A stretch of DNA of 64,000 nucleotides. Source: a virus. Lineage: Duplodnaviria; Caudoviricetes. Shown here piece after piece: positions 15,508 to 57,104 of the stretch. How positions within the stretch are numbered: the stretch's first letter is position 1; every line of letters starts with the position of its first letter. The notes beneath the pieces were generated by a model. It was not told the origin of the DNA. It saw only the letters and a list, made by a program, of their open reading frames with translations, and searched no databases. The position numbers were made by a program, and so were the translations under genes. The stretch lies in IMG/VR virus record IMGVR_UViG_3300020434_000055. The stretch is one strand, 5' to 3'.

Positions 15508-15523
15508 AGATTAAAATACTCTA

Positions 15524-15922: not shown

Positions 15923-15926
15923 TTAC

Positions 15927-15955
15927 TTGACTGTAGACATTCTTTATCATATACT
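15927..15955 (+). promoter_or_regulatory. Sigma70-type promoter
   Basis: TTGACT-17-TATACT. Confidence 0.7.
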
Positions 15956-36254: not shown

Positions 36255-36551
36255 ATGATATATTACATTGACATAGACGGAACCATTTGTTATACTAAAG
36301 GTAGCGACTATGACAATAGTAAACCTGATTTAAAAAAAATAAAACAGGTTAATGAATTATATGATAAAGGTCATGAAATTCATTATTGGACTTCTAGAGG
36401 AGGAATGTCTGGAAAAGATTGGTATCTATTTACAATAGCTCAACTTAATGAATGGGGTTGTAAATTTACATCAATTAAATTAGGTAAACCTGTTTATGAT
36501 AAATGGGTTGACGATAAAGCAATAAACGAAAAGGATTTTTTTAATGGCTGA
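36255..36551 (+). CDS. Minimal HAD-family phosphatase
   Basis: YYIDIDGTIC, YWTSRG, GKP..D.WVDDK. Confidence 0.75.
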   Translation: MIYYIDIDGTICYTKGSDYDNSKPDLKKIKQVNELYDKGHEIHYWTSRGGMSGKDWYLFTIAQLNEWGCKFTSIKLGKPVYDKWVDDKAINEKDFFNG

Positions 36552-37038
36552 AGATTATGATAATGTAACGGAAGAATGTTTTACTTCCACTAAGAGTTTT
36601 TGGAACTTTCCTTGTGCTCATAGACAATATAGACACGAAGGCAATTGCCATTTAATTCACGGGTACAGTAGAAGTTTTCATTTTATATTTGGAATTAAAT
36701 CATTTACAAAAGAAGGCTTTGCAGTAGACTACGGTGACTTAGATGAACTAAAAGCACATTTAGATCATATGTACGACCATACATTAGTATTAGATGAAGA
36801 AGATCCATATATGGAAAATTTTAAAGTATTAGAAAAAGCAGGTGTATGTCGAATTAGAACTCATCCAATGGGACCAGGCATGGAAGGTACTGCACATTAT
36901 CTTTGTGATTGGACAGACACATGGTTACGTAAAAAATCACGAGGACGAGCTTGGGTTATTAGTGTAGAAGCTAGAGAAAATGATAAAAATAGTTCAATTT
37001 ATAAAAATCCAAATGCTGGATTTAAAGGCTGGTTATAA
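36544..37038 (+). CDS. queD: 6-carboxytetrahydropterin synthase
   Basis: CAHRQ...[23 protein letters not shown]-fold motifs. Confidence 0.88.
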
Positions 37039-44016: not shown

Positions 44017-44017
44017 T

Positions 44018-44554
44018 ATGGCTACACACGGAATGATAGACTTGGAAACTTTAGATACTACACCTAATGCTACGATTCTTACATTAGGAGCAGTTAAATT
44101 TAATCCTTATAATAGTCAAACACCTCATACTGATTTATATCTAAAAGTAGATGTAGATGTACAAACAAAAATGGGAAGAATTGTAAATGATTCTACAATA
44201 GAGTGGTGGGGACAACAAAATAAAGAAGTTAGAGAAGATGCATTTGCAGAACAAGGAAGAATTAGTTTAGAAGAGTTAACAAAAACTCTTAACAAATGGT
44301 GCGTAGGATTAGATGAACTTTGGTGCCAAGGTCCATTATTTGACTACGCAATATTACAAAATTTATATGCACAATTAGAAAAACCTGTGCCTTGGGCTTA
44401 TTGGCAAATTAGAGACTCTAGAACAGTACTCAATATGTTGCCAAAAGATATGAGAAAAGGTCCTAGAACAGATGTTCACAATGCTTTGGCTGATTGCAAA
44501 TATCAAGCTAGAGCTATTCAAAAGGCATATAGATATTTTGGAGTTCAAAAATAA
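44018..44554 (+). CDS. DEDDh 3'-5' exonuclease
   Basis: MIDLET, FD..IL, HNALADC. Confidence 0.85.
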   Translation: MATHGMIDLETLDTTPNATILTLGAVKFNPYNSQTPHTDLYLKVDVDVQTKMGRIVNDSTIEWWGQQNKEVREDAFAEQGRISLEELTKTLNKWCVGLDELWCQGPLFDYAILQNLYAQLEKPVPWAYWQIRDSRTVLNMLPKDMRKGPRTDVHNALADCKYQARAIQKAYRYFGVQK

Positions 44555-44568
44555 TGAAACATTTAAAC

Positions 44569-44597
44569 TTGACTTCGGATAAAAACCTAAATATAAT
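44569..44597 (+). promoter_or_regulatory. Sigma70-type promoter (clamp-dpdA operon)
   Basis: TTGACT-17-TATAAT. Confidence 0.75.
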
Positions 44598-44615: not shown

Positions 44616-45344
44616 ATGAAAAGTATCTTACAAGATATTGTTGCTCATACACATTCCTTAGGATTTTTAAGTTTAGTAAAAATCTCGAATGATGAGAAAA
44701 CAAAAATAGAAAGTATGGCTGAAGATCGTTCAGTTATATTAAGTGCAAATACCAATGACAAAGTAGACGAGTTTGATGGTATTTTTGGAATGCCTAATTT
44801 AGACAAATTAGCACTTCACTTAAAATGTCCAGAGTATGACAAAAATGCAAAATTAAATGTTGTGTCTTCTGTTAGAAATGGAAAAAAGGTCCCAACTAAT
44901 ATTCACTTTGAAAACGAAAAAGGTGATTTTCAAAATGATTATAGATTTATGAGTACTGAAATTATTAACGAGAAATTAAAATCTGTTAAATTTAAAGGTA
45001 CTGCTTGGGACATAGAGTTTGAACCTAGCATAGCGGCAATTCAAAGATTAAAATTGCAGGCGGCGGCTCACGTAGAAGAAACTGTATTCACAGTAAAAAC
45101 AGAAAATAAAAGTTTAATGTTTTATTTTGGTGATGCAAATTCTCACGCAGGAAACTTTGTGTTTCATAATGATGTAGGAATGGATCTTAAAAAGAACTGG
45201 AGTTGGCCTATTCAACAAGTTATTAGTATATTAAGTCTTGATGGAAGAATGAAAATGAAAATTTCTGATCAAGGAGCAATGCAAATAACTGTAGATAGTG
45301 GTGTTGGGGAATACAATTACATTTTACCAGCTCAAACAAAATAA
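44616..45344 (+). CDS. Probable sliding clamp (gp45-like)
   Basis: Size 242 aa, two-domain beta/alpha pattern, position next to polB; weak sequence evidence. Confidence 0.55.
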   Translation: MKSILQDIVAHTHSLGFLSLVKISNDEKTKIESMAEDRSVILSANTNDKVDEFDGIFGMPNLDKLALHLKCPEYDKNAKLNVVSSVRNGKKVPTNIHFENEKGDFQNDYRFMSTEIINEKLKSVKFKGTAWDIEFEPSIAAIQRLKLQAAAHVEETVFTVKTENKSLMFYFGDANSHAGNFVFHNDVGMDLKKNWSWPIQQVISILSLDGRMKMKISDQGAMQITVDSGVGEYNYILPAQTK

Positions 45345-45354
45345 GGAGCAATAC

Positions 45355-46818
45355 TTGAACACAGACTTAACAAAAGTTCAGAAAGATTGGGCGGTATTCT
45401 TGCCAGCGATGAGTAGTTTCTTCGCGAGAGATATAGGAAAAGCAAAACACGAAGATGATTATGTACTTCCTGAAAGAGTTCCTAAAAAGTTTGAACACGG
45501 AATCCAAGGTTTAAATTATATAGAACCAAAGGATACGTATTTTAACTATAAATGGAATTTATATTCCGCAGGTCACGCCGATTTGAATATGACAAAGTTT
45601 AGTGTTAGAGATGACATTATTAGAAATAGAAATAGAGCTAATAATTGGTTACTTGGAGACTCAGGTGGTTTCCAAATAGGTAAAGGTGTATGGGAAGGAG
45701 ATTGGAAAGATCCTGCTTGTCCTAAAGCAAGAAAGAAACGAGAACAAGTATTAACATGGTTAGATGCTAATATGGACTATGGAATGATATTAGATATTCC
45801 AGCTTGGGTTTCGAGATCACCCGAAGGTGCTAAAGCTAGTAATATTAATAGCTATCAAGAAGCTGTTAATGGTACAAAAATAAACAATGATTATTTTATG
45901 AAAAATAGAAAAGGTGATTGTAAGTTTTTAAATGTATTACAAGGTGAAAATTTCCAACAAGCAGACGATTGGTATGCACAAATGAAAGACTATTGTGATC
46001 CTAAAAAATATCCTAGTACACATTTTAATGGTTGGTCAATGGGTGGACAAAATATGTGTGATATACATCTTGCATTAAAGAGACTTGTAGCACTACGTTT
46101 TGATGGATTACTTGAAAAAGGTGTTCATGATGTTGTACACTTTTTAGGAACATCTAAACTTGAATGGGCAGTACTTTTAACAGATATACAAAGAGCTATA
46201 AGAAAATATCACAATCCAAATCTTATGATTACATTTGATTGTGCTTCTCCGTTTTTAGCTTGTGCCAATGGTCAAATTTATATTGATATCGAAATAAAAG
46301 ATAGAAAAAAATGGGTATACAGAATGCAGGCAAGTGCAGATAATAAAAAATATAAACCTGATCCCAGAACGTTTAAAGATGCTGTACTTGAAGAAAAAAT
46401 ATTTAAAAGTTTTAGAGATAGTCCAATTAGTAAAAGATTAATGCTTGATGATGTATGTTGTTATTCTCCTGGAGAATTAAACAAAATGAAAAATGATCCA
46501 AAAACTAGTTGGGATTCATTTAGTTACACTTTACAAATGGCTCACAATGTTTGGATGCATATTACAGCAGTACAAGAAGCCAATGAAGCATATGACAAAG
46601 GAATATATCCAAGTATGTTATTACAAGAACAATTTGATAGAGTTGCTTTTAAAGATATTGTAGAGGCAATATTTGCAACTAGTAATAGAGACGAAGCAAA
46701 TGCAGTAATTGAAGAATTTTCAAGATACTGGATGTCAATTATAGGAACAAGGGGGGCGACAGGCAAGAAAACAGTGAACGCAAGTACACAATTTGCTAAT
46801 TTATTTGAGGAGGAATAA
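45355..46818 (+). CDS. dpdA: Guanine transglycosylase (TGT fold), DpdA-like DNA base-exchange enzyme
   Basis: DSGGFQ, MILDIP, VLQG, GWSMGG, HFLG, FDCASP motifs; TTG start after AAGGAG; near folE/queE. Confidence 0.8.
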   Translation: MNTDLTKVQKDWAVFLPAMSSFFARDIGKAKHEDDYVLPERVPKKFEHGIQGLNYIEPKDTYFNYKWNLYSAGHADLNMTKFSVRDDIIRNRNRANNWLLGDSGGFQIGKGVWEGDWKDPACPKARKKREQVLTWLDANMDYGMILDIPAWVSRSPEGAKASNINSYQEAVNGTKINNDYFMKNRKGDCKFLNVLQGENFQQADDWYAQMKDYCDPKKYPSTHFNGWSMGGQNMCDIHLALKRLVALRFDGLLEKGVHDVVHFLGTSKLEWAVLLTDIQRAIRKYHNPNLMITFDCASPFLACANGQIYIDIEIKDRKKWVYRMQASADNKKYKPDPRTFKDAVLEEKIFKSFRDSPISKRLMLDDVCCYSPGELNKMKNDPKTSWDSFSYTLQMAHNVWMHITAVQEANEAYDKGIYPSMLLQEQFDRVAFKDIVEAIFATSNRDEANAVIEEFSRYWMSIIGTRGATGKKTVNASTQFANLFEEE

Positions 46819-47009
46819 TGGTGAAGATAAAGAAAAAACTTAAAAAATTAAAATATGAGTTTGATTATTATCACAGAAAAGTCGAAGATATGGAAACTGA
46901 AAGGGACGAAGATAGAAGTTGGGAAGGAAAAGCATTATTAAAAAAGTTTAAAAAAATTAAACTTGCTTTAAAAACAGAAATAGAAAACTTTAGCAAAAAA
47001 ATAGATTAA
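46818..47009 (+). CDS. Small basic coiled-coil protein
   Basis: Coupled to the TGT stop; GAGGAG RBS. Confidence 0.5.
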   Translation: MVKIKKKLKKLKYEFDYYHRKVEDMETERDEDRSWEGKALLKKFKKIKLALKTEIENFSKKID

Positions 47010-47010
47010 T

Positions 47011-48000
47011 ATGAAAAGTTTAGTTATAGGTTTAAATTTTGGTCAATTATATACACGTGTTTTGAAAAAAATGGGACACGAAGTAATCACTGTGGATATT
47101 GATTCAAAACAAAATCCTATGTTTTTAGAATTAACTACAGCTCTAAAAACTCATCCTACATATGATACTATACATATTTGTACACCCAATAATACACATT
47201 ATATTGTTGCCCAAAAAGTTGCTAAACATGGTAAAATTATTTTTATTGAAAAACCAGGAGTTGAAACGCCACAACAATGGCAATTATTACAAACATTAAA
47301 TCCAGGCACTAAATTTATAATGACAAAAAATAATATGTTTAGAAGTAAATTATTTCTTGATAAAGTAAAAGAATCAGCATTACAAAGCGATACAATTGAA
47401 ATAAATTGGATTAATCAAGATAGAATACCTAATCCAGGTTCTTGGTTTACAAATAAAAAACTTGCATTTGGGGGCGTAACTCACGATTTATTTCCTCATT
47501 TATTAAGCATTTTTATTGAATTAAATCTAACCTCTTATCAAAATTTTAATATTAAAAATTTTCATAAAGAACAAAAATGGAATTTAAAAGATATTCATAT
47601 GAGATACGATGTGCATGGAAAAGAAATTAAAGAAGAAATAGGTCAAGGAGGCACATACGGTACAATTAATAAAGATGGTGTATATGATGTAGATGACCAA
47701 GCACAAATGGAATTATCTAATGATAATAAAACATTTAAAATAAAAGCAGATTGGAAACGTGGTCGCCCTGGACAAAAAGAAATAATATCTATAGATGATA
47801 TTGGTTTACATTTTTATAAAGACGATGTTGAACATTTAAACTTTATTGAGCTTGGACTTTGTCCGGAAAGTGCATATGAAAATATGATTAGACATTGTTT
47901 AGTACACCTTGAAGACAAAATGTTTTGGAACAAACAATTAGAATATGATTTATGGATACAAAAAGCAATTATAAATGATGACAAAGTTACTATACACTGA
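47011..48000 (+). CDS. Gfo/Idh/MocA-family NAD(P) oxidoreductase
   Basis: Rossmann VIGLNFG, ICTPNNTH, IEKP, GGVTHDLFPH. Confidence 0.85.
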   Translation: MKSLVIGLNFGQLYTRVLKKMGHEVITVDIDSKQNPMFLELTTALKTHPTYDTIHICTPNNTHYIVAQKVAKHGKIIFIEKPGVETPQQWQLLQTLNPGTKFIMTKNNMFRSKLFLDKVKESALQSDTIEINWINQDRIPNPGSWFTNKKLAFGGVTHDLFPHLLSIFIELNLTSYQNFNIKNFHKEQKWNLKDIHMRYDVHGKEIKEEIGQGGTYGTINKDGVYDVDDQAQMELSNDNKTFKIKADWKRGRPGQKEIISIDDIGLHFYKDDVEHLNFIELGLCPESAYENMIRHCLVHLEDKMFWNKQLEYDLWIQKAIINDDKVTIH

Positions 48001-48889
48001 AGGTAAAGGTTCATTTAATGAAGGAACTATAGATATTCCTAGCATATCTAATGAACAAATTAAAGTTAAAGCAATATACACAGGAGTATGTAGAAGCGAT
48101 ATTGATATGATGCAAGGAAACTTTGGACCATTACCTTTAACTATGCAAGGTCATGAAGGATTAGGAAAAGTAATAGAAAAAGGAAAAAATGTATATGATG
48201 TAGACATAGGAGACTTTGTAGCAACTAGAGGAGAACCTGCATATGCAGACTTTTATAATTGTGAAGCAGGAACTTATGTTAAAGTACCCGAATGCGATCC
48301 TAAATATATTATAGAACCTGTTGCTAGTGGTATAAACATAATCAATTCTTGTAAGATGCCAATTGAAAGAAGAGGTAGAAAACAAGGAGCAAGATTATTA
48401 ATTATAGGAAGTGGGTTTTTAGCACAGGTTGTATATCATTATCTTTTAAATTTTATGTTAGAAAAAAATATTCATTTTAATATTACAGTATACGGTCATA
48501 GTAATAAAGAATTATGGGGCAACAAACTTTCTGATGCAATTGACGGAAAGTTTGATGTTGTAATTGATCTTAATAATAGAAATGAAGCATTTGAAAAAGA
48601 AATATTTAATACAGAAGCATTATTAATAATGGGTGCTGAAAAACCTAATAAAGTTACAACAACATTTTCTACAATGCTATGGAATTCAATGACTTTAAAA
48701 TTTCCTAGTCCAAGAGATAGTGGATTTATAGAGTGTATGCATAAAGCAGTAGAATTAATACATTCAGGTAAAATTGATGTATCTTCTTTTTGGACAAAAG
48801 GTTACGATAGAAATACAGAATGGAAAGATGCATTTAACGAAGGTCTTAATAGACCAAAAGGTTACAGTAGAGGATATATTAAGTGGTAA
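47975..48889 (+). CDS. Zn-type alcohol/polyol dehydrogenase (MDR superfamily)
   Basis: GVCRSD, GHEGLG, IEPVA, LIIGSGFL. Confidence 0.85.
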   Translation: MMTKLLYTEGKGSFNEGTIDIPSISNEQIKVKAIYTGVCRSDIDMMQGNFGPLPLTMQGHEGLGKVIEKGKNVYDVDIGDFVATRGEPAYADFYNCEAGTYVKVPECDPKYIIEPVASGINIINSCKMPIERRGRKQGARLLIIGSGFLAQVVYHYLLNFMLEKNIHFNITVYGHSNKELWGNKLSDAIDGKFDVVIDLNNRNEAFEKEIFNTEALLIMGAEKPNKVTTTFSTMLWNSMTLKFPSPRDSGFIECMHKAVELIHSGKIDVSSFWTKGYDRNTEWKDAFNEGLNRPKGYSRGYIKW

Positions 48890-48893
48890 AAAA

Positions 48894-49418
48894 ATGTTAG
48901 ATACAAGTAAAAGAAAAGAAACAACATTTTTTATAGGAACTGAAATAGAACAAACACCTATGAAAGGTACAAAAACTTTATTTGTAGTAGGTATTAAACC
49001 TGCAAACGAAATAGATAAAATTGCTAGTAAAAATAATATAAAAAATATTTACTTTGGAACAAGTCAAAGTTTTAACCCTAGCAATGAAACAGATTGGAAA
49101 GACTGGTATGTAATGATGACAATATTATTAGAAAAAAACTATTGGGTTACATTAGATTTTGATATCAGTTATTCCAATGACGTAATAGAGTCAGGATTAA
49201 TGGCCTTTGAAAGATTTATTCCAATGATAAGTGCCAAAATTCCAAATATAGAAAAACTGAATAAAAATGCAGTTTTAAAAATAGATGATACTACGTGGGG
49301 TCTAACAAATAAAGGAGTATGGTCCAAAGACCTGGCAACTTTAAAAGATACAATGCAATATACGGAATGGGCCGAATATAAAGACGACACCGTTTTGGAT
49401 ATTGACAATGAAAAGTAA
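48894..49418 (+). CDS. Hypothetical protein in the modification locus
   Basis: Start placed at ATG 48894; alpha/beta pattern (IYFGTSQSF, VTLDFD, LKIDD). Confidence 0.55.
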   Translation: MLDTSKRKETTFFIGTEIEQTPMKGTKTLFVVGIKPANEIDKIASKNNIKNIYFGTSQSFNPSNETDWKDWYVMMTILLEKNYWVTLDFDISYSNDVIESGLMAFERFIPMISAKIPNIEKLNKNAVLKIDDTTWGLTNKGVWSKDLATLKDTMQYTEWAEYKDDTVLDIDNEK

Positions 49419-49430
49419 AGCTGTTATAAT
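49402..49430 (+). promoter_or_regulatory. Consensus sigma70 promoter (dpdL-like/GT operon)
   Basis: TTGACA-17-TATAAT with extended -10 TG. Confidence 0.8.
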
Positions 49431-49460
49431 GGATAACTCATAAAAAAGAAAAGGAACGCA

Positions 49461-49838
49461 ATGAAAAAAATGATTTGGGTAACATTTAGAAAAGAAGGAA
49501 TTCACAAATATCCTGCGGCTCTAACTGACCCTAAATTAGCAACTGGAGATGAATATGATGTGTCATTTTTGGGACATCCCCATAGACATACATTTCATTT
49601 TAAAGTGGCGATCGAAGTATTCCACGATGATAGAGATATCGAATTCATCCAATTTCAAAGATGGATTTTGAGTTTATATGATCAAGGCACATTACAAAAC
49701 GACTTTAAAAGTTGTGAAATGATGTCAGATGATTTATATGCACAAATAAAAGATAGATATCCTGGTAGAGATATTGAAATAGATGTTTCTGAAGATGGAG
49801 AAAATGGATCACACGCAGTATATAATAAGGAAAAATAA
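49461..49838 (+). CDS. QueD-paralog T-fold protein, DpdL-like (putative CDG decarboxylase)
   Basis: EGIH and LGHPHRHTF (LxxxHRHxF), DRDIEF, SCEMM, VSEDGENG. Confidence 0.65.
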   Translation: MKKMIWVTFRKEGIHKYPAALTDPKLATGDEYDVSFLGHPHRHTFHFKVAIEVFHDDRDIEFIQFQRWILSLYDQGTLQNDFKSCEMMSDDLYAQIKDRYPGRDIEIDVSEDGENGSHAVYNKEK

Positions 49839-50882
49839 ATGACAATTTATATTGTTGATTTGGAAGCAGTAGATACTCGATATACAAAAGAGTGGAAAGA
49901 ATATCTTCCAAGACAATTAAAAAAACATACTAATAGAGAAGTAGTTAATATTAGTGGAGGCGATACACCACAAACAACTACTCCTGGTGCTTTTTTAAAC
50001 TTTGGTGGAACAAATGTTTATAAAAGTAATCAATTAGCAAAAATTGGTCAAATGTTTTGTGAAAACAAAATAAAAGATGGAGACTATTTCCTTTATACAG
50101 ATGCGTGGAATCCTACAGTCTTACAATTAAAATATATGGCAGAATTATTAAATGTTAAAATTAAAATAGGAGGTATGTGGCACGCCGGTTCTTATGATCC
50201 TGCAGATTTTTTAGGACGTATTATTGGTGATAAACCTTGGGTAAGAAAAACAGAAGAAAGTATGTATGAAACTTTTGATCATAATTTCTTTGCAACAGAT
50301 TTTCATTTAAAAATGTTTTGTGATACATTTAAATGTACTTCAAAAGTAAAAAGAGTAGGTTGGCCTATGGAATATATGGAACATAATCTTGATTCATATA
50401 AAAATATGACTAAAAGAAATTTAATTTTATATCCGCATAGACTAGCCCCAGAAAAACAACCGGGTATTTTTCAAGACCTTAAAGATTCTTTATCATCTCA
50501 ATATGAATTTGTAGTATGTCAAGAAAGACCTTTAAGTAAAATACAATATCATAATTTATTAGGAGAAGCTAAATTAATTTTTAGTGCTAATTTACAAGAG
50601 ACACTAGGTATAAGTTGGTTTGAAGGTACCTTATTAGATGTTATACCTATGATTCCAAATAGATTAAGTTACACAGAAATGGCTATTGATGAATTTGTTT
50701 ATCCAAGTGAATGGACAAGTTCTACCGAACAATATCATAAACACAAAAAAGATATAATAGCAAAAATAAATGATTATATGGAGAATTATAAAACATATAT
50801 TCCAAAAATATGGAAACAAAGAGATGCCTTAAAAGAAAAATTCTTTTCTGGTAAACAATTATATAGGGAAATAAATGGCTAA
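49839..50882 (+). CDS. GT-B glycosyltransferase
   Basis: Two-domain 347 aa; HRLAPEKQ and ETLGISWFEG match GT4-like donor-binding motifs. Confidence 0.75.
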   Translation: MTIYIVDLEAVDTRYTKEWKEYLPRQLKKHTNREVVNISGGDTPQTTTPGAFLNFGGTNVYKSNQLAKIGQMFCENKIKDGDYFLYTDAWNPTVLQLKYMAELLNVKIKIGGMWHAGSYDPADFLGRIIGDKPWVRKTEESMYETFDHNFFATDFHLKMFCDTFKCTSKVKRVGWPMEYMEHNLDSYKNMTKRNLILYPHRLAPEKQPGIFQDLKDSLSSQYEFVVCQERPLSKIQYHNLLGEAKLIFSANLQETLGISWFEGTLLDVIPMIPNRLSYTEMAIDEFVYPSEWTSSTEQYHKHKKDIIAKINDYMENYKTYIPKIWKQRDALKEKFFSGKQLYREING

Positions 50883-51429
50883 AAAAGAAGGTGAAATAAA
50901 AAATAATTTAGCAACAAATGGCGTTTACGTATTAATGGACGACATTAATATGGAAACTTGTAGAGAGTGTATTAAATGGATAATGAATTGTAATCTTGCA
51001 ACAACAAGATTACCTAAATTAACTTTAATTATTAATTCTCCAGGAGGTGACGTTCATGCCGCTTTTGCTTTAATCGATACAATGAAAGCTAGTACTATTC
51101 CAATAAAAACTGTAGGTTTAGGACTAATTGCATCTTGCGGATTCTTAATTTTTATTGCAGGTAAAAAAGGTCAAAGAATTTTAACACCAAATACATCTAT
51201 TTTATCTCACCAATATTCTTGGGGTAGTGATGGAAAAGAACACGAACTATATGCTCGTGTTAAAGAATTTGAACTATCAACTAGAAGAATGATTGAGCAT
51301 TATAAAAAATGTATTGGCATGACTGAAAAGAAAATTAAAGAAGTATTATTGCCTCCACAAGACGTATGGTTATCGTCTGAAGAGGCTAGAAAATTAAAAA
51401 TTTGTGACAAAATAGAACAGTTATACTAA
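50875..51429 (+). CDS. clpP: ClpP-family protease
   Basis: INSPGG, IASCG (Ser), ILSHQ (His), QDVWLSSEEA (Asp). Confidence 0.88.
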   Translation: MAKKEGEIKNNLATNGVYVLMDDINMETCRECIKWIMNCNLATTRLPKLTLIINSPGGDVHAAFALIDTMKASTIPIKTVGLGLIASCGFLIFIAGKKGQRILTPNTSILSHQYSWGSDGKEHELYARVKEFELSTRRMIEHYKKCIGMTEKKIKEVLLPPQDVWLSSEEARKLKICDKIEQLY

Positions 51430-51432
51430 TGT

Positions 51433-51882
51433 ATGATAAAGAAAAGCAAAAAAGATAAACAAAAAGAACTTTGGTCAAAAGGAGAAGGCGAATATAGTGA
51501 ATGGCCTGTCTATCCTAGTTCTTCTTGGGCTGGTTCTGAGGCAGGAGAGGCAAAATTAGATAGAGATTCAGGAGGATTTGTAGTTTCATATGGAACTGGT
51601 TCTTCTGGTGCTCCTCCTTCTAGTACAGAACAAAACGATCCTACTTTATATGGAGTAAGCAGTCCTTTACAAAGTCAATTTGAAACAGATGCAATATCAG
51701 GTCAATATACTTTTGATTATGATTTAAGTGAACCTAGACCATTTCAACGAGCTATGCCGAGTTTATCTCAAGTTGAAGAGATGTGTAAAATATATCCTTC
51801 ATTAAAAATTGCATATGAAAAATTTAAAAACATTTACAGGATAGTATATGATGACTACGCAACCAGAGATGATGACGTTTAA
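51433..51882 (+). CDS. Hypothetical protein
   Basis: ORF in operon context. Confidence 0.5.
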   Translation: MIKKSKKDKQKELWSKGEGEYSEWPVYPSSSWAGSEAGEAKLDRDSGGFVVSYGTGSSGAPPSSTEQNDPTLYGVSSPLQSQFETDAISGQYTFDYDLSEPRPFQRAMPSLSQVEEMCKIYPSLKIAYEKFKNIYRIVYDDYATRDDDV

Positions 51883-52342
51883 AACAACAGAAGTTAAAAA
51901 AAACTATTTTACTATGATGCAAGTAAGACACAGTCTTAATATGATTCTTTCTGAAATGTCAGGACTAGATTGGAAACCTCATATTGTTTTAGGAATTAAT
52001 AGAGGCGGATGTGTACCTGGCATTTATCTTAGTCATGCTTTAGATATACCTCACGAGACATTAGACATTAGACTTAGAGATCATAAAAGTAAACCTAGTT
52101 TAGCAGTTTTAGAAAAAGCTCATGCTTTTCAAAAAAAAATATTAATTATAGATGATATAAATGATACAGGTGCAACACTCAATTATATTAAAGACAATTT
52201 TGGTGCTCCTGAGAATTTAAAATTTGCAAGTATTATACATAATGAACCAAGTAAATTTCAAGGTTTACATTTTAAAGGATATACAATTAATAAAGAAAAA
52301 GATCCAGCATGGATTGTATTTCCTTGGGAAGAATGGCAATGA
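51869..52342 (+). CDS. Type I phosphoribosyltransferase (xanthine/hypoxanthine PRT-like)
   Basis: GINRGG, ILIIDDINDTGAT, WIVFPWE. Confidence 0.88.
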   Translation: MMTFKTTEVKKNYFTMMQVRHSLNMILSEMSGLDWKPHIVLGINRGGCVPGIYLSHALDIPHETLDIRLRDHKSKPSLAVLEKAHAFQKKILIIDDINDTGATLNYIKDNFGAPENLKFASIIHNEPSKFQGLHFKGYTINKEKDPAWIVFPWEEWQ

Positions 52343-52734
52343 TAGAGAAACAAAGAGTAGATACATTAGAACTAGCTCAAAAACAAGGAAGAGCTCCTTG
52401 GTCAGATGTTGTTCATGATTTTAAAGATATGGTTTGGTACAATGATGGTTACCCAGTAACAGAAGGTCATTCTTTAATTGTACCTAAAGAAGCAACACAA
52501 GAAAGATTAGTAAGATGTTTTGATTTAGCAATAAAAATAGCCAATGATAATGTTGCTAAAGGAGTTATTGACGGTTATAATATTGGAATTAATGTAGGAG
52601 AAAGTGCCGGACAAACTGTAATGTATCCGCACGTACATTTAATACCTCGTAAAAAAGGAGATACTAAAAATCCCAAAGGCGGAGTAAGAAATGTTGTAGC
52701 TGGAAAAGGAGATTACACAAAGAAAAATGTCTAG
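52339..52734 (+). CDS. HIT-family nucleotide hydrolase
   Basis: YPVTEGHSLIVPK, GYNIGIN.GESAGQTVMYPHVHLIPR. Confidence 0.88.
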   Translation: MIEKQRVDTLELAQKQGRAPWSDVVHDFKDMVWYNDGYPVTEGHSLIVPKEATQERLVRCFDLAIKIANDNVAKGVIDGYNIGINVGESAGQTVMYPHVHLIPRKKGDTKNPKGGVRNVVAGKGDYTKKNV

Positions 52735-53542
52735 AGCATTATTTGTAGGAGATAGCCATTTAGCTGGTTATGTTACCATACCGGAAAAAGTAGGTCCAGG
52801 AAGTTATAAAGTTTATCAAGATAATAATTTTGCTGAACAATATGCTATTTTAAACAATAAAGAAACAGTCATTTACACAACGCCAGGAACTGTTAATCAA
52901 GTATATCCTGATTGGATTAAATGTATGTTCAATAAATTTGATGACATAGATGAAGTACACGTATTACTAGCAAGTTTTAATAGATTTGTAATTGCATTTA
53001 ATAAAACTTTAATGGAAAAAACTATAAAAATAGATCATTTTACAAAACTAACAGCTGAAAAACCATTGCTTAAAATATACTCAGATGATATTATAGTAGA
53101 AGATTCTGTGCAATTATTTAATAAACCTATAAGATCTGATTATGAAAATTTTACAGGCTTTGAATTTAATCCAGAAAAAGGTTTAATAAAGCCAGATATA
53201 AGAAAACAATCATATATGGAATGCAAATTATTTTATGATTTAAACACACATATAGAACATAGAAACTTTTATAAAGACATTTATACAATAGATAATATTT
53301 GTACAGACAATAATGCAAAATTATTTGTATACTCAATGAGAACTCGAGCTAAATTTCCTACTGACTTTGATTATTATGGAGATTTAAAAGTTACTAAAAT
53401 TGCTTCTCAGACTATAGAAGATTATATGAAATCTATTAATATAGATCCTGACAAACATTTTTTAAGCGATAACGAACATTATAATACTGAATTTCATAAA
53501 TCAATAGCAGAGAATTATATACCATGGATAAAAAAATCTTAA
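52727..53542 (+). CDS. SGNH/GDSL-like protein
   Basis: FVGDSH at the N-terminus and DNEH (DxxH) at the C-terminus. Confidence 0.6.
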   Translation: MSRALFVGDSHLAGYVTIPEKVGPGSYKVYQDNNFAEQYAILNNKETVIYTTPGTVNQVYPDWIKCMFNKFDDIDEVHVLLASFNRFVIAFNKTLMEKTIKIDHFTKLTAEKPLLKIYSDDIIVEDSVQLFNKPIRSDYENFTGFEFNPEKGLIKPDIRKQSYMECKLFYDLNTHIEHRNFYKDIYTIDNICTDNNAKLFVYSMRTRAKFPTDFDYYGDLKVTKIASQTIEDYMKSINIDPDKHFLSDNEHYNTEFHKSIAENYIPWIKKS

Positions 53543-54132
53543 TAATAGGTGACAGTTTTGCCTGCCCTTGGCTTAAACCCAAATATGACGGGTGGCCTAC
53601 TCTACTTGCAAAAAAATATAACCTTGATAATTTAGCAGAAGCAGGTGTAGGTGAATATAAAATATTAAAACAATTACGACAAATGTCTAATTTAGATGCT
53701 TGGTGGATACAAACATTTGGATTAGTGATTGTTTCACATACAAGTCCTAGTCGAATTCATACATCAAATCATCCTGTACATAAAAAAGGATTACATAAAA
53801 ATTGTGATTTAATTTATAATGACATTATGGAAAAAAGTCATATATTTAATTCTAGACTTAAAACTGCTAAAAATTGGTTTAAACATTTTTATGACGACGA
53901 TTATCAAAAAGATATGTATGAATTAATGAGAAATGAAATAGCAAGATCAATACCAATTCCTGCTATTCATTTAGACCATTTTAGTATTAGCAAAGATTTT
54001 GGTTCTGAAAAGCACAGAATTGATTTTTGCCAAACTTGGATAAAACATAGAGGAATAGTTAACCATTATACGGAGGAAGGAAATCGGATTGTCTATCAAA
54101 GAATTATTGACAAAATTGGACAAATCTGTTAA
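53524..54132 (+). CDS. SGNH/GDSL-like protein
   Basis: IIGDSF, NLAEAGVG, NHYTEEGN. Confidence 0.6.
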   Translation: MDKKILIIGDSFACPWLKPKYDGWPTLLAKKYNLDNLAEAGVGEYKILKQLRQMSNLDAWWIQTFGLVIVSHTSPSRIHTSNHPVHKKGLHKNCDLIYNDIMEKSHIFNSRLKTAKNWFKHFYDDDYQKDMYELMRNEIARSIPIPAIHLDHFSISKDFGSEKHRIDFCQTWIKHRGIVNHYTEEGNRIVYQRIIDKIGQIC

Positions 54133-54135
54133 TGT
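54107..54135 (+). promoter_or_regulatory. Possible sigma70 promoter (folE-queE)
   Basis: TTGACA-17-TAATGT with TG. Confidence 0.5.
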
Positions 54136-54141
54136 AACATT

Positions 54142-54819
54142 ATGAAAACATCTGAAAAAATTAAACAAAGATTAATAGACAAAAAAATACGTTTTTTTGC
54201 TAATGATAACATATCTAAACATATAGAAAAAGGCGAATTAAAAGATTTAGAAGTAGAAATAGAAGAAGCATTTGAAGATATATTAGATGCTTTAGTAATT
54301 GATACTGAAAACGATCATAATTCAAAAGAAACTGCTAAACGTGTAGCAAAAATGTACATCAATGAAATATTTTCAGGAAGATATGTTTCTCCTCCAAAGA
54401 TTACATCATTTCCAAATATGGGATATAAAAGTTTATATACAAGTGGTCCAATTAGTGTTAGATCAACCTGTGCTCACCATTTTCAAAACATTGTAGGAAA
54501 TTGTTGGGTAGGAGTATTACCTGAAGATGAAGTTATAGGTTTAAGTAAATTTAATAGAATTGTACACCATATTTCAGAAAGACCACAAATACAAGAAGAA
54601 CTGACTTTACAAATTTCTGAATCATTATCGAAATATGCTAAAACACCAAATGTAGCAGTAGTAGTCAAAGCAAAACATCATTGTTTAACTCAACGTGGTG
54701 TAAAAGAATCTGAAAATGATATGACCACCGCAGTTATGTTAGGAGCATTTGATACCCATGCTCCACTTAAAAAAGAATTTTATGATATATGTTTTAGTAT
54801 GAAAGGACATAGCATTTAG
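54142..54819 (+). CDS. folE: GTP cyclohydrolase I
   Basis: TAKRVAKMY, STCAHH, GLSKFNR, RPQIQE, HHCLTQRG. Confidence 0.95.
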   Translation: MKTSEKIKQRLIDKKIRFFANDNISKHIEKGELKDLEVEIEEAFEDILDALVIDTENDHNSKETAKRVAKMYINEIFSGRYVSPPKITSFPNMGYKSLYTSGPISVRSTCAHHFQNIVGNCWVGVLPEDEVIGLSKFNRIVHHISERPQIQEELTLQISESLSKYAKTPNVAVVVKAKHHCLTQRGVKESENDMTTAVMLGAFDTHAPLKKEFYDICFSMKGHSI

Positions 54820-54826
54820 GTGAGAA

Positions 54827-55690
54827 ATGGAATCAAATGAATTTAGAGTTACTGAAGCATTTATTTCAGTACAAGGTGAAGGCAGATTTGTAGGTGTACC
54901 TAGTGTATTTTTACGATTGTTTGGTTGTAATTTTAAATGTCGTGGCTTTGGAATGCCGAAAGGTCAATTAGCAGACGATTATTTAAAAGTAGATGCAAAT
55001 GATCCTAAATATAAAACACTTAAAGATTTACCTTTAGTGCATCGAGGATGTGATAGTTATGCATCATGGGACGCAAGATTTAGAAAGTTTACAAAAGATT
55101 ATAATGTTGAACAATTAGTTGAAAAATTATTATCTTTAACACCAGAAGGTAAGTGGACTTGTACAAACGGACAAGATATACATCTTGTTATAACAGGAGG
55201 AGAACCTTTATTAGGATGGCAAAGACTTTATGTTGACTTGTTTGAACATCCTAGAATGAAAGATTTAAAAAATGTTACATTTGAAACGAATACTACACAA
55301 CCTATCAGAGAAAATTTATTGGAGTGGACAAAAACGCAGGATAGAATACATATTACGTTTTCGTGCTCTCCGAAACTTACCGTTTCCGGAGAACGTTGGG
55401 AAGATGCTATCAAACCCAGTGTTGCTAAAAATTACTATGACACTCCCAATAGTCATTTGTATTTCAAATTTGTTGTCTGTGACAATGGCGATATTGAAGA
55501 AGTTTCAAAAGCTGTTGAACTTTATTCAAAAGCAGGTATTAGTTGTCCAGTCTACTGTATGGCCGTTGGTGGCTGTTATGAAGAGTACCAAGAAAACGCA
55601 AAAAATGTTACCGAACTCGCAATGCAAAAAGGATGGAGATATAGTCCAAGATTGCACGTCGATATTTTCGGAAACGAATGGGGAACTTAA
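54827..55690 (+). CDS. queE: 7-carboxy-7-deazaguanine synthase (radical SAM)
   Basis: SVQGEG, RLFGCNFKC...CDS, VITGGEP, ETN, CSPK, YSPRLH. Confidence 0.92.
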   Translation: MESNEFRVTEAFISVQGEGRFVGVPSVFLRLFGCNFKCRGFGMPKGQLADDYLKVDANDPKYKTLKDLPLVHRGCDSYASWDARFRKFTKDYNVEQLVEKLLSLTPEGKWTCTNGQDIHLVITGGEPLLGWQRLYVDLFEHPRMKDLKNVTFETNTTQPIRENLLEWTKTQDRIHITFSCSPKLTVSGERWEDAIKPSVAKNYYDTPNSHLYFKFVVCDNGDIEEVSKAVELYSKAGISCPVYCMAVGGCYEEYQENAKNVTELAMQKGWRYSPRLHVDIFGNEWGT

Positions 55691-56111: not shown

Positions 56112-57104
56112 ATGAATTACATTTTAGTAGATACTGCAAATACTTTTTTTAGAGCTAGACACGTTATTAGAGGTGCTTTAAATGAAAAAGTAGGAATGGC
56201 TCTTCATATTACATTTAATAGTATAAGAAAAGTTTGGCAAGAATTTAAAGGAGACCATGTTGTATTTTGTTTAGAAGGAAAATCTTGGCGAAGAGATGTT
56301 TATCCTAGATATAAAATGAATAGAAAAACTGCTCGAGAGGCGTTAACTGTTTCTGAAAAAGAAGAGGAAGAAGTTTTTTGGGAAACATTTACTCACTTTA
56401 AAAATTTTATAGATACAAAAACAAATTGTACAATAATACAACATGAACAGCTAGAAGCAGATGACTTAATTGCAGGTTGGGTAAAAGCACACCCAGATGA
56501 TAATCATATTATAATATCAACTGACGGAGACTTTGCACAATTGATAAAACCTAATGTAAAACAATACAATGGAATACAAGAAGTTACTATTACACACGAA
56601 GGATACTTTGACAATAAAAAGAAACCTGTAATAGATAAAAAAACAGGAGTTCCTAAAAAAGCACCTAACCCTAAATTAATGCTATTTGAAAAATGTGTAA
56701 GAGGAGATCCTACTGATAACGTATTTTCAGCATACCCGGGTGTTAGAGCTAAAGGAACTAAAAAGAAAGTAGGGTTAATTGATGCATTTGAAGACCGAGA
56801 AACCAAAGGATTCAATTGGAATAATTTAATGCTACAAAGATGGAGAGATCAAGACGGGGAAGAACACAGAGTTGTAGATGATTACAATAGAAACGTAATA
56901 CTATGTGATTTAGATGCACAACCACCCAAAATTAAAGCTGTAATAAAAAAAACAGTAGAATCAGTTAAAGCAAAAGCAATAGAACAAGTAGGGTTAAAAC
57001 TTATTAAATTCTGTGCTAAATGGGATATGCAAAGAATAGCCGAGTATCCACAGAGCTACGCAGAGCCCTTAAACGCAAAATATAAGCAGAAAGAGGTAGC
57101 ATGA
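56112..57104 (+). CDS. rnh: T4-type RNase H / 5'-3' exonuclease
   Basis: ILVDTAN, LEGKSWRR, YK.NR, EADDLI, STDGDF.QL, GDPTDN. Confidence 0.9.
   Translation: MNYILVDTANTFFRARHVIRGALNEKVGMALHITFNSIRKVWQEFKGDHVVFCLEGKSWRRDVYPRYKMNRKTAREALTVSEKEEEEVFWETFTHFKNFIDTKTNCTIIQHEQLEADDLIAGWVKAHPDDNHIIISTDGDFAQLIKPNVKQYNGIQEVTITHEGYFDNKKKPVIDKKTGVPKKAPNPKLMLFEKCVRGDPTDNVFSAYPGVRAKGTKKKVGLIDAFEDRETKGFNWNNLMLQRWRDQDGEEHRVVDDYNRNVILCDLDAQPPKIKAVIKKTVESVKAKAIEQVGLKLIKFCAKWDMQRIAEYPQSYAEPLNAKYKQKEVA

What the first reader, a model, noticed from the sequence alone, without database searches (positions are those of the whole stretch)
45355..55690. Candidate new DNA hypermodification system: 7-deazaguanine insertion coupled to redox and glycosyltransferase genes
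Seen in sequence: directly after polB, exonuclease and clamp come a TGT/DpdA-like transglycosylase, a Gfo/Idh/MocA oxidoreductase, an MDR dehydrogenase, an unknown protein, a second QueD-like T-fold protein, a GT-B glycosyltransferase, PRTase, HIT, two SGNH-like proteins, folE and queE. queD lies 9 kb upstream. Established: FolE-QueD-QueE make 7-carboxy-7-deazaguanine (CDG), and DpdA exchanges guanine in DNA for 7-deazaguanines. The phage products I know (dPreQ0, dPreQ1, dG+, dADG, dCDG, dDG, methyl/formyl-PreQ1) carry no sugar. Inference: the redox pair plus GT could create or tailor a C7 handle, for example a 7-hydroxymethyl group by analogy with T4 glucosyl-hmC, or build an unusual sugar donor, giving a glycosylated and possibly acylated deazaguanine. 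The two oxidoreductases share a predicted transcript with dpdA, and the GT is translationally coupled to the T-fold gene.
Basis: partly seen in the sequence, partly recalled or inferred. Interest (0 to 1): 0.92.

Follow-up and report, generated by a model that had tools for sequence, protein, structure and literature searches.

The report
Deazaguanine DNA-modification genes with embedded glycosyltransferase
A widespread marine jumbo phage carries the known genes for swapping guanine in its DNA for 7-deazaguanine, tightly joined to a sugar-transferring enzyme and sugar-type redox enzymes, a combination also found in cultured phages whose DNA chemistry is unsolved, so a sugar-bearing deazaguanine is a serious but unproven candidate.

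Summary
The gene list is real, with three ORFs omitted: a ClpP-like protease, a 149-aa ORF and a 63-aa ORF. "SGNH-like" rests only on a GDS motif.

- **Base exchange enzyme.** The 487-aa protein has a TGT fold (Z 15.8-17.8 to ArcTGT, TGT and DpdA) and is distantly related to phage DpdA3.
- **T-fold protein.** It belongs to the published DpdL family, the proposed CDG decarboxylase behind dDG in phage phiST.
- **Precursor genes.** FolE, a PTPS/QueD and a divergent QueE are present. No QueC was found in relatives or in cultured carriers.
- **Baseline.** The known phiST-type 7-deazaguanine system therefore explains the core.

What I found undescribed in the papers searched:
- A GT4-type GT-B glycosyltransferase lies within about 3 kb of DpdL in five cultured lineages (ACP17, PA5oct group, Phosso, X1/BUDD, BCSR5) and in 80/80 GT-selected uncultured relatives, despite shuffled gene order.
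- An unknown 174-aa family travels with it in ACP17, PA5oct and 77/80 relatives.
- In 80 loci fetched through the MDR gene, Gfo (80/80) and the 174-aa gene (78/80) lie beside it. PA5oct keeps that block 26 kb away.

PA5oct DNA resists G-containing restriction sites, and its chemistry is unknown.

Verdict: functional linkage is well supported. A sugar on the base is plausible (about 0.4) and directly testable. First readers of this scan flagged the same module on other genomes, all unchecked.

The parts
36544..37038 (+). QueD/PTPS-family T-fold enzyme (CPH4 synthase candidate). Its motif reads CxxxHGY and not CxxxHGH.
   Evidence: PF01242 E 5e-18. TIGR03367 QueD scores 33 bits, below its cut-off. 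Motif read from the translation.
44569..44597 (+). Promoter-like site (11/12) ahead of clamp, DpdA-like, Gfo, MDR and the 174-aa gene
   Evidence: Consensus match only.
45355..46818 (+). TGT-superfamily base-exchange enzyme, a divergent DpdA-like protein (487 aa)
   Evidence: AF2 pLDDT 91.5. Foldseek top 50 are all Z. mobilis TGT. VIA Z 17.8 ArcTGT, 16.9 TGT, 15.8 DpdA 7ui4, against 11.6 or less for other TIM barrels. hhalign 96% to ACP17 and X1 DpdA3. D102, S103, G105 (DSGGFQ) and D295 (FDxASP) are invariant in 41 homologues.
46818..47009 (+). 63-aa ORF conserved in part of the clade
   Evidence: tblastn hit in 24/80 GT-centred loci and in L004.
47011..48000 (+). Gfo/Idh/MocA NAD(P) oxidoreductase (EKP motif)
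   Evidence: PF01408 E 4e-9. Atlas 0.98 to viral GFO_IDH_MocA clusters. Next to MDR in 80/80 MDR-centred loci and in PA5oct.
47975..48889 (+). Short MDR / Zn-alcohol-dehydrogenase-like enzyme (CxxD...GHE zinc motif, GxGxxA)
   Evidence: ADH_N E 9e-11. 39% identical to PA5oct 0363.
48894..49418 (+). Unknown 174-aa family ('unk174'), a conserved partner of the module
   Evidence: 77/80 GT-centred and 78/80 MDR-centred loci. PA5oct 0364: hhalign 100%, E 8e-52. ACP17 ORF between folE and dpdA3: 98.6%, E 5e-16. No Pfam or PDB match.
49402..49430 (+). Perfect extended sigma70-type promoter-like site ahead of DpdL-GT
   Evidence: 12/12 with TG.
49461..49838 (+). DpdL-family T-fold protein (proposed CDG decarboxylase)
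   Evidence: The LxxxHRHxF motif defined in PMC10516641 is present. 56% identical to ACP17 DpdL and 33% to phiST DpdL. phrog_17812 E 4e-33. Atlas links to PTPS clusters.
49839..50882 (+). GT-B, GT4-like (retaining-type) glycosyltransferase
   Evidence: AF2 pLDDT 84. Foldseek BshA, MshA, PimB E 3e-11. Closest viral model is the ACP17 GT, TM 0.88. E254-x7-E262, R201 and K206 are invariant.
50875..51429 (+). ClpP-like protease. It interrupts the cluster and is probably not part of the pathway.
   Evidence: PF00574 E 4e-29. Present in only 23/80 loci.
51848..52342 (+). Type I purine PRTase, closest to xanthine/guanine PRTase
   Evidence: PF00156. NF006613 E 6e-13, below its cut-off. 72/80 loci and PA5oct.
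52309..52734 (+). HIT (HinT-like) protein
   Evidence: PF01230 E 9e-11. 65/80 loci.
52727..54132 (+). Two unassigned proteins with N-terminal GDS motifs (271 and 202 aa). The SGNH assignment is unverified.
   Evidence: No family hit. Found in 44/80 and 22/80 loci.
54142..54819 (+). GTP cyclohydrolase I FolE
   Evidence: PF01227 E 5.5e-45.
54827..55690 (+). Divergent QueE-like radical SAM enzyme. About 36 residues separate the 2nd and 3rd cluster Cys.
   Evidence: The only significant PDB sequence hits (E <= 1e-4) are QueE: 6nhl E 5e-6 and 4njg E 8e-5, with a third QueE at 0.09. TIGR QueE models match the N-terminus only. 32% identical to PA5oct QueE with the three Cys conserved.

Best explanation
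This is a phiST-type 7-deazaguanine DNA-replacement module that has gained a glycosylation branch.

Proposed steps:
1. FolE, QueD and QueE make 7-carboxy-7-deazaguanine from GTP (established chemistry of these families).
2. The DpdL-family T-fold protein removes the carboxyl group to give 7-deazaguanine. This is proposed in the literature and has never been shown in vitro.
3. The divergent TGT-fold, DpdA-like enzyme, encoded beside polB and the clamp, exchanges guanine in phage DNA for that base (inferred from fold, motifs and context).
4. The GT4-type glycosyltransferase, with the conserved 174-aa partner, then transfers a sugar from a nucleotide-sugar onto the deazaguanine (inference). The most likely target is the base already in DNA, and C7 is one speculative site.
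5. Gfo/Idh/MocA plus MDR tailor the sugar or its donor (inference). In relatives a variable set of UDPG-dehydrogenase-like, SDR-epimerase-like and cytidylyltransferase-like genes may fill that role.
6. The XPRT-like PRTase may return the released guanine to GMP (inference).
For: - **TGT superfamily membership.**, with catalytic motifs invariant. Distant homology to DpdA3 of ACP17 and X1.
- **DpdL membership.**
- **Precursor genes.** FolE, QueD and QueE-like.
- **No QueC.** None in four related viral records of up to 268 kb or in the complete genomes of PA5oct, ACP17, Phosso and BCSR5.
- **GT is an intact GT4-like enzyme.**
- **GT stays close to DpdL although gene order differs.** ACP17: unk174-dpdA3-GT-dpdL-queE. 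X1: GT-dpdA-dpdL-queE. PA5oct: dpdA-GT-dpdL. Phosso: dpdL-GT. Window: unk174-dpdL-GT. BCSR5: dpdL about 3 kb from GT-dpdA.
- **Uncultured relatives.** 80/80 GT loci carry DpdL and 77/80 carry unk174.
- **Gfo-MDR-unk174 block.** Embedded between the DpdA-like gene and DpdL in 80 loci, down to 47% MDR identity. Kept as a block in PA5oct.
- **Sugar-nucleotide genes recur nearby.**
- **Deacetylase-like partner.** X1 and BCSR5 carry a PIG-L-like protein near their GT, E 5e-5 and below the Pfam threshold. This echoes the MshA/MshB and BshA/BshB pairing.
- **Failed reconstitution (PMC10516641).** ACP17 dpdL plus dpdA gave no dDG in E. coli. The authors wrote that other enzymes may be required.
Against: - No chemical data exist for any GT-carrying phage.
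- 7-deazaguanine offers no hydroxyl or primary-amine side chain. A GT4 enzyme acting on DNA or forming a C-glycoside would have no precedent that I know of.
- phiST makes plain dDG with DpdL and DpdA3 and no GT. Phages with close DpdL but no GT hit exist, for example RHph_I1_18 and Ahp1.
- Gfo/MDR are missing from four of the five cultured GT lineages and from this locus in 55/80 marine relatives.
- Much of the synteny count comes from related phages and is not phylogenetically independent.
- ClpP and other unrelated genes sit inside the stretch.
- DpdL's activity itself is unproven.
Confidence: 0.42

Rival explanations
1. Plain dDG system. The DNA carries unsubstituted 7-deazaguanine exactly as in phiST. 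The GT, the 174-aa protein and Gfo/MDR serve something else, such as virion or host envelope glycosylation or a small metabolite, and lie nearby only because of shared early or middle expression.
For: - phiST-type gene logic (DpdA, DpdL, FolE, QueD, QueE, no QueC) is complete without a GT.
- DG has no obvious acceptor group.
- Several DpdL phages lack the GT.
- PA5oct keeps Gfo-MDR-unk174 26 kb from the dpdA cluster.
- The window carries many unrelated auxiliary metabolic genes, including FDH, GMP reductase, bL12 and ClpP.
Against: GT stays within about 3 kb of DpdL in five cultured lineages with different gene orders, and inside a tight queD-folE-...-queE operon in ACP17. In cultured phages, close GT homologues are never seen without DpdL and DpdA.
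Confidence: 0.3
2. The GT and the 174-aa protein act on a soluble intermediate of the pathway and not on DNA. They might make a glycosylated or activated deazaguanine carrier, or be the missing factor needed for DpdL or DpdA activity. The final DNA base may then carry no sugar.
For: - The nearest structural relatives (BshA, MshA, PimB) glycosylate small molecules.
- ACP17 dpdL plus dpdA alone gave no dDG in E. coli.
- PRTase and HIT proteins, which act on nucleotides, are conserved in the module.
- The GT is not basic: pI 7.6.
Against: No known deazaguanine pathway uses a glycosylated soluble intermediate. phiST does without it.
Confidence: 0.18
3. The TGT-fold enzyme modifies tRNA (host or phage) and not DNA.
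For: TGT, ArcTGT and QTRT2 score slightly higher than DpdA in structure comparison.
Against: - The gene lies in the replisome block beside polB and the clamp across hundreds of relatives.
- It is homologous to the phage DpdA3 group.
- It has no PUA or other detectable tRNA-binding domain, and no conserved Cys or His zinc site among the invariant columns.
- PA5oct DNA itself resists G-site restriction enzymes.
Confidence: 0.05

Closest known systems
phiST-type dDG system (DpdA3 + DpdL + FolE/QueD/QueE, no QueC; Cui et al. 2023, PMC10516641)
   Same: Same precursor genes and a member of the same DpdL family. A TGT-fold base exchanger beside the replication genes. No QueC in relatives.
   Different: The exchanger is a much larger protein (487 aa against 259 aa) that only profile methods link to DpdA3. 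phiST has no GT4 enzyme, no unk174 (hhalign probability 1%) and no Gfo/MDR.
Pseudomonas jumbo phage PA5oct (Wroclawvirus), unidentified G modification (PMC12191111)
   Same: Syntenic polB-clamp-DpdA-like-GT-DpdL...QueE-RNaseH (33%, 45%, 56% and 32% identity). It also carries Gfo-MDR-unk174 as a block.
   Different: Gfo-MDR-unk174 lies 26 kb from the dpdA cluster. The host is a soil or clinical Pseudomonas, not a marine bacterium. The chemistry is unknown there too.
T4 glucosyl-hydroxymethylcytosine (alpha- and beta-glucosyltransferases)
   Same: The concept: a phage GT-B-fold enzyme adds sugar to a non-canonical base in DNA.
   Different: T4 GTs are not among the top 50 structural matches in PDB or BFVD. 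The T4 acceptor is a hydroxymethyl group made at nucleotide level. No such handle is evident here.
Mannosyl- and galactosyl-queuosine in eukaryotic tRNA (the transferases QTMAN/GTDC1 and QTGAL are named from my own knowledge)
   Same: A glycosyltransferase puts sugar on a 7-deazaguanine derivative in a nucleic acid.
   Different: There the acceptor is the cyclopentenediol of queuosine in RNA. No relationship was shown here: neither name appears among the top 30 Swiss-Prot structural hits.
MshA/MshB and BshA/BshB (GT4 GlcNAc transferase plus PIG-L/LmbE deacetylase)
   Same: BshA and MshA are the best structural matches of the GT. X1 and BCSR5 place a PIG-L-like protein two genes upstream of their GT.
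   Different: Fold-level similarity only (10-13% identity). The PIG-L hit is below the Pfam threshold, and no PIG-L-like gene was found in this window.

Membership tests
TGT superfamily / DpdA (DNA 7-deazaguanine transglycosylase) | TGT-type (beta/alpha)8 barrel | tested here: met
   pLDDT 91.5. Z 17.8, 17.2, 16.9, 15.8 and 14.0 to ArcTGT, QTRT2, TGT, DpdA and Cap10, against 11.6 or less for other barrels.
TGT superfamily / DpdA (DNA 7-deazaguanine transglycosylase) | Catalytic Asp pair (DSGG(F/L)Q motif and nucleophile Asp in an FD-type motif) | tested here: met
   D102, S103, G105 and D295 are invariant in 41 homologues of 26-79% identity. They align with the DSGGLQ and SYDS motifs of ACP17 and X1 DpdA3. 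Equivalence to TGT Asp102/Asp280 is my reading of the motifs.
TGT superfamily / DpdA (DNA 7-deazaguanine transglycosylase) | Sequence membership in a described DpdA subfamily (bDpdA, DpdA1-4) | tested here: inconclusive
   No Pfam, NCBIfam or PDB sequence hit. No BLAST hit to ACP17 or phiST DpdA3. hhalign probability 96% over about 180 columns only. It is probably a separate subfamily with 945 clusters at 50% identity.
TGT superfamily / DpdA (DNA 7-deazaguanine transglycosylase) | Acts on DNA, not tRNA | not testable with these tools
   Indirect evidence only: replisome context and the restriction resistance of PA5oct DNA.
DpdL (proposed CDG decarboxylase) | LxxxHRHxF replaces the QueD motif CxxxHGH | tested here: met
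   The window protein reads L-GHP-HRH-T-F. L37, H41, H43 and F45 are invariant across 9 phages including phiST. Motif definition from PMC10516641.
DpdL (proposed CDG decarboxylase) | Homology to the phiST and ACP17 DpdL named in the paper | tested here: met
   56.5% to ACP17 (E 4e-36) and 33% to phiST (E 2e-7).
DpdL (proposed CDG decarboxylase) | Occurs with DpdA, FolE, QueD and QueE but without QueC | tested here: inconclusive
All four partners are in the window. PF06508 is absent from four related viral records and from the PA5oct, ACP17, Phosso and BCSR5 genomes. The window's own genome beyond 64 kb could not be read.
DpdL (proposed CDG decarboxylase) | Decarboxylates CDG | not testable with these tools
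   Also unproven in the literature.
GT-B glycosyltransferase, GT4-like | Two Rossmann-like domains (GT-B fold) | tested here: met
   pLDDT 84, pTM 0.82. Foldseek E 3e-11 to BshA, then MshA, PimB, PimA and glycogen synthase.
GT-B glycosyltransferase, GT4-like | E-x7-E motif and basic residues for the donor diphosphate | tested here: met
   E254 and E262, plus R201 and K206, are invariant in 24 homologues. Assigning them to donor binding is by analogy.
GT-B glycosyltransferase, GT4-like | Donor and acceptor identity | not testable with these tools
   -
T4-type DNA glucosyltransferases | Structural or sequence kinship with T4 AGT or BGT | tested here: not met
   Absent from the top 50 PDB and top 50 viral structural matches.
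QueE (CDG synthase) | Radical SAM core with QueE-specific N-terminal substrate motif and three-Cys cluster | tested here: inconclusive
   The only significant PDB sequence hits (E <= 1e-4) are QueE enzymes, E 5e-6 and 8e-5. TIGR QueE models match residues 6-39 only, at about 44 bits against cut-offs of 200 or more. The Cys spacing is C-x3-C-x~36-C and is conserved in PA5oct.

The most novel reading that the evidence does not exclude
An abundant group of marine jumbo phages, together with cultured phages PA5oct, ACP17, Phosso, X1 and BCSR5, replaces guanine with a sugar-bearing 7-deazaguanine. The DpdL-unmasked base would be glycosylated by a GT4 enzyme with a new 174-aa partner, possibly as a C7 C-glycoside. 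Interchangeable redox and nucleotide-sugar gene sets would diversify the sugar. As far as I know this would be the first glycosylated purine analogue in any DNA.
Probability: 0.35. Interest if true: 0.9.

Novelty: new variant of a known kind. Interest (0 to 1): 0.72.

Why it matters
The eight 7-deazaguanine DNA derivatives listed in the 2023 survey (PMC10516641) carry no sugar, and every glycosylated DNA base I know of is a pyrimidine. A GT-dependent branch would:
- add a new chemical class of DNA hypermodification;
- explain why the ACP17 pathway could not be rebuilt in E. coli;
- identify the unknown G modification of PA5oct, a jumbo phage of Pseudomonas aeruginosa whose DNA modification decides whether END nucleases restrict it (PMC12191111);
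- define a large new DpdA-like subfamily (945 clusters at 50% identity) and a new 174-aa protein family.

The stretch studied here is held at 89% or more of its sampled words in marine metagenome runs from at least seven studies. Its G chemistry therefore also bears on how such phage DNA behaves in sequencing. Cultured carriers exist, so the question can be tested directly.

Tried and rejected
- **Direct family searches.** Pfam, NCBIfam and PHROGs gave nothing for the TGT-like protein, the GT, unk174 or the GDS-motif proteins. PDB sequence searches with single sequences and profiles found no TGT, GT or T-fold relative.
- **Megablast.** The 10.4-kb region matches no phage record at DNA level.
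- **unk174 function.** Atlas features gave only sub-threshold glycoside-hydrolase-like leads at 0.80-0.83. Homology to the same-position ORFs of X1 and BCSR5 is inconclusive: hhalign probability 0.2-22%. No relation to phiST CGPG_00066 or to the Phosso 'glycosylase'.
- **DpdL against the window's QueD.** Single-template hhalign was uninformative. The T-fold link rests on the paper's HHpred result and on Atlas PTPS clusters.
- **'Gfo/MDR and Epimerase/CTP-transferase are mutually exclusive alternatives'.** This held in the marine GT-centred set: 20 loci with Gfo/MDR had none, and all 36 without it had one. It failed in the wider MDR-centred set, where 16/46 carry both. I keep only the weaker statement that sugar-nucleotide-type genes recur in variable combinations.
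- **'Gfo/MDR is a one-off insertion'.** Rejected.
- **Whole genome.** None is held, so the QueC-like gene noted beyond the window could not be read.
- **Sequencing runs.** All are kept as contigs only, so read-level signal for modified G was not obtainable.

Full report
**What is there.** The window is part of a low-GC (about 31%) jumbo phage. Its polB is closest to those of Sinorhizobium phage Phosso, Agrobacterium phage Atu_ph07 and the RaK2 group, at 43-47% identity. Nothing in the phage collection matches at DNA level. All genes of the finding lie on the + strand, in this order:

- polB 41347-44016
- Rv2179c-like 3'-5' exonuclease 44003-44554 (E 4e-37)
- clamp-like gene 44616-45344
- 487-aa protein 45355-46818
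- 63-aa ORF
- Gfo/Idh/MocA 47011-48000
- MDR (ADH_N) 47975-48889
- unknown 174-aa protein 48894-49418
- 125-aa protein 49461-49838
- 347-aa protein 49839-50882
- ClpP-like protease 50875-51429
- 149-aa ORF
- PRTase 51848-52342
- HIT 52309-52734
- two unassigned proteins with GDS motifs
- FolE 54142-54819
- QueE-like 54827-55690
- RNaseH/FEN 56112-57104

A PTPS/QueD gene lies at 36544-37038. It omits ClpP, the 149-aa ORF and the 63-aa ORF, and 'SGNH-like' could not be verified.

**The base-exchange enzyme.** Pfam, NCBIfam, PHROGs and PDB sequence searches see nothing in the 487-aa protein. The family is nevertheless very large. An exhaustive search found 945 clusters at 50% identity.

An AlphaFold2 model built on 41 diverse homologues is confident (pLDDT 91.5). 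Foldseek's first 50 PDB matches are all Zymomonas TGT. An independent all-against-representatives alignment gives Z 17.8 (ArcTGT), 17.2 (QTRT2), 16.9 (bacterial TGT), 15.8 (the DNA preQ0 insertase DpdA, 7ui4) and 14.0 (Cap10). Unrelated TIM barrels start at 11.6.

D102, S103 and G105 of a DSGGFQ motif and D295 of an FDxASP motif are invariant across the family. Profile comparison aligns these motifs with the DpdA3-type proteins of ACP17 and X1, at 96% probability and E 6e-9. I file it as a TGT-superfamily, DpdA-like enzyme. It is probably a subfamily of its own. That DNA is its substrate is inferred, not shown.

**The T-fold protein is DpdL.** Cui et al. 2023 (PMC10516641) defined DpdL as a QueD paralogue in which CxxxHGH becomes LxxxHRHxF. 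They found it in phages with DpdA, FolE, QueD and QueE but no QueC, and proposed it as the CDG decarboxylase behind dDG in phiST. The window protein carries L-GHP-HRH-T-F. It is 56% identical to ACP17 DpdL and 33% to phiST DpdL.

PF06508 (QueC) is absent from four related viral records (up to 268 kb) and from the complete genomes of PA5oct, ACP17, Phosso and BCSR5. The part of this genome beyond the window could not be read. An earlier first-reader note of a QueC-like ATPase there therefore stays unchecked. The default reading from the literature is a phiST-type dDG system, which is a known kind.

**The glycosyltransferase and its partners.** The 347-aa protein folds as a GT-B enzyme (pLDDT 84). 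Its best matches are the GT4 retaining enzymes BshA, MshA, PimB and PimA (E down to 3e-11). E254-x7-E262, R201 and K206 are invariant. T4 DNA glucosyltransferases do not appear among the matches.

The key result is comparative. In the 50,697-record phage collection the GT has 22 hits. Seventeen of them lie within about 3 kb of a DpdL gene, in five separate cultured lineages with different gene orders:

- ACP17: queD-folE-[unk174 homologue]-dpdA3-GT-dpdL-queE
- X1/BUDD: [143 aa]-GT-dpdA-dpdL-queE
- BCSR5: dpdL about 3 kb upstream of [155 aa]-GT-dpdA
- PA5oct group: dpdA-like-GT-dpdL
- Phosso: clamp-x-dpdL-GT-x-folE

. The closest viral structure to the model is the ACP17 GT (TM 0.88).

The unknown 174-aa protein is also conserved with the module. 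It occurs in 77 of 80 uncultured GT-centred loci. It is the ORF between folE and dpdA3 in ACP17 (hhalign 98.6%, E 5e-16). It is PA5oct gp0364 (100%, E 8e-52). It matches no known family.

**The redox pair.** Among cultured phages, Gfo homologues occur only in the 11 PA5oct-group records, and full-length MDR homologues only there too. In those genomes Gfo(0362)-MDR(0363)-unk174(0364) form a block 26 kb from the dpdA-GT-dpdL cluster.

In 80 IMG/VR loci fetched through the MDR gene (47-100% identity), the counts were Gfo 80/80, unk174 78/80, DpdA-like 74/80, DpdL 74/80 and GT 66/80. Many of the rest are truncated contigs. The order polB-clamp-DpdA-like-Gfo-MDR-unk174-DpdL-GT is essentially invariant.

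In 80 loci fetched through the GT (64-77% identity, mostly marine), only the 25 closest carry Gfo/MDR. The others carry an SDR epimerase/dehydratase-like gene, often with a cytidylyltransferase-like or UDPG-dehydrogenase-like gene, between polB and the clamp. In the wider set both kinds can co-occur. Gfo/MDR is therefore an accessory part of the module, though a widely conserved one. The neighbourhood is repeatedly furnished with sugar or nucleotide-sugar type enzymes in changing combinations.

X1 and BCSR5 instead place a PP-loop ATPase and a PIG-L-like protein before their GT. The PIG-L match has E 5e-5, below the Pfam threshold. This recalls the GT4-plus-deacetylase pairs MshA/MshB and BshA/BshB, and it is a lead only.

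[quoted passage not shown] The authors inferred a modified G from QueE and PTPS genes. PA5oct is restricted by END nucleases that sense hypermodified DNA, and the chemical identity of the modification was not determined (PMC12191111).

Cui et al. could not obtain dDG in E. coli from ACP17 dpdL plus dpdA, and noted that other enzymes may be needed. Their main text never mentions a glycosyltransferase. Four full-text searches found no paper describing a glycosylated deazaguanine in DNA. phiST, which lacks the GT, has 100% plain dDG. A Vibrio phage, VP1, was likewise reported with complete dDG replacement. I did not examine its genome for the GT.

**Interpretation.**
- I consider it very likely (about 0.8) that this phage replaces G in its DNA with a 7-deazaguanine made through CDG and DpdL.
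- It is likely (about 0.65-0.7) that the GT and the 174-aa protein belong functionally to that pathway. Their linkage survives gene-order shuffling in lineages as different as a 156-kb T4-like phage and 470-kb jumbo phages.
- Whether the final DNA base carries a sugar is open (about 0.4). DG has no classical acceptor group.
- One chemically conceivable route is attack of the electron-rich C7, unmasked by DpdL, on the sugar donor. That would be a C-glycoside, comparable to tryptophan C-mannosylation. This is speculation. It would explain why the GT travels with DpdL and not with QueC-type clusters.
- The PRTase is closest to xanthine/guanine PRTase and is conserved in 72/80 loci. It could recycle the guanine released by base exchange.

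**Transcription claims.** A 12/12 extended promoter-like site sits at 49402-49430 before DpdL. The DpdL stop abuts the GT start. An 11/12 site precedes the clamp, and no + strand terminator-like site occurs in 44-57 kb. Promoter-like sites overall are not enriched: 76 found against 72 expected.

**Verdict.** The core is a known kind (DpdL-type 7-deazaguanine DNA). The conserved GT4/unk174 branch, with or without Gfo-MDR, is not described in the papers I could search, and it is directly testable in cultured phages. First readers of this scan flagged the same module on several other genomes. Those notes are unchecked and are not independent evidence.

Noticed in passing
window 50875-51429: A ClpP-like serine protease (PF00574, E 4e-29) sits between the GT and the PRTase. 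It is present in only 23/80 related loci, those of the window's own sub-clade, so it looks like an unrelated insertion.
   Followed up: partly
window 37588-38784: Full-length NAD-dependent formate dehydrogenase (NF005750, 652 bits against a cut-off of 329) encoded by the phage. It shares an operon with QueD, a peroxiredoxin, a CN-hydrolase, GMP reductase (NF003470, 469 bits) and ribosomal protein bL12.
   Followed up: no
window 36544-37038: The PTPS/QueD protein reads CxxxHGY where QueD has CxxxHGH, so one presumed zinc histidine is replaced. It scores below the QueD equivalog cut-off. Its product may not be canonical CPH4.
   Followed up: no
window 54827-55690; L001:13451-14323: The QueE-like protein has its three cluster cysteines spaced C-x3-C-x~36-C (GCNFKC...RGCDS). 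The same spacing is conserved in PA5oct QueE. It is an unusual radical-SAM motif spacing.
   Followed up: partly
L089/L172 (IMGVR_UViG_3300031757_000432) against window 45355-51429: Mosaic divergence in a near-identical relative. MDR is 99-100%, DpdL 95% and the DpdA-like protein 94% identical, but Gfo only 57% and GT 77%. Gfo is the sharpest outlier (the 149-aa ORF is 60%, the first GDS protein 74%, GT 77%), which suggests allele replacement.
   Followed up: no
L169:6332-7944 (phage X1); L170:6137-7975 (phage BCSR5): A conserved block of PP-loop ATPase (PAPS_reduct), PIG-L-like protein and a 143/155-aa protein lies directly before GT-dpdA. The small protein shares an N-terminal IGxEVE...TLF...HxY pattern with unk174, but homology is not significant (hhalign 22%).
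   Followed up: partly
L004:7146-9011 and 15366-15950 (Tara contig): Marine relatives without Gfo/MDR carry a truncated UDPG/GDP-Man dehydrogenase-like gene, an SDR epimerase-like gene and a cytidylyltransferase-like gene between polB and the clamp. They also carry a 2OG-Fe(II) oxygenase between PRTase and HIT.
   Followed up: partly
window 45355-55300: This stretch is held at 89% or more of sampled words in marine metagenome runs from at least seven studies, so the phage is widespread. A few oligo-dT and metatranscriptome runs hold small parts of it.
   Followed up: no
PhiXhv-12/15/16, Ep026, Ep032 (Xanthomonas/Erwinia phages, hits H14-H18 and H86-H90): These phages have distant hits (about 25% identity) to both the DpdA-like protein and the GT, about 90 kb apart, and no DpdL hit. 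They may carry a further variant of the system or unrelated genes.
   Followed up: no
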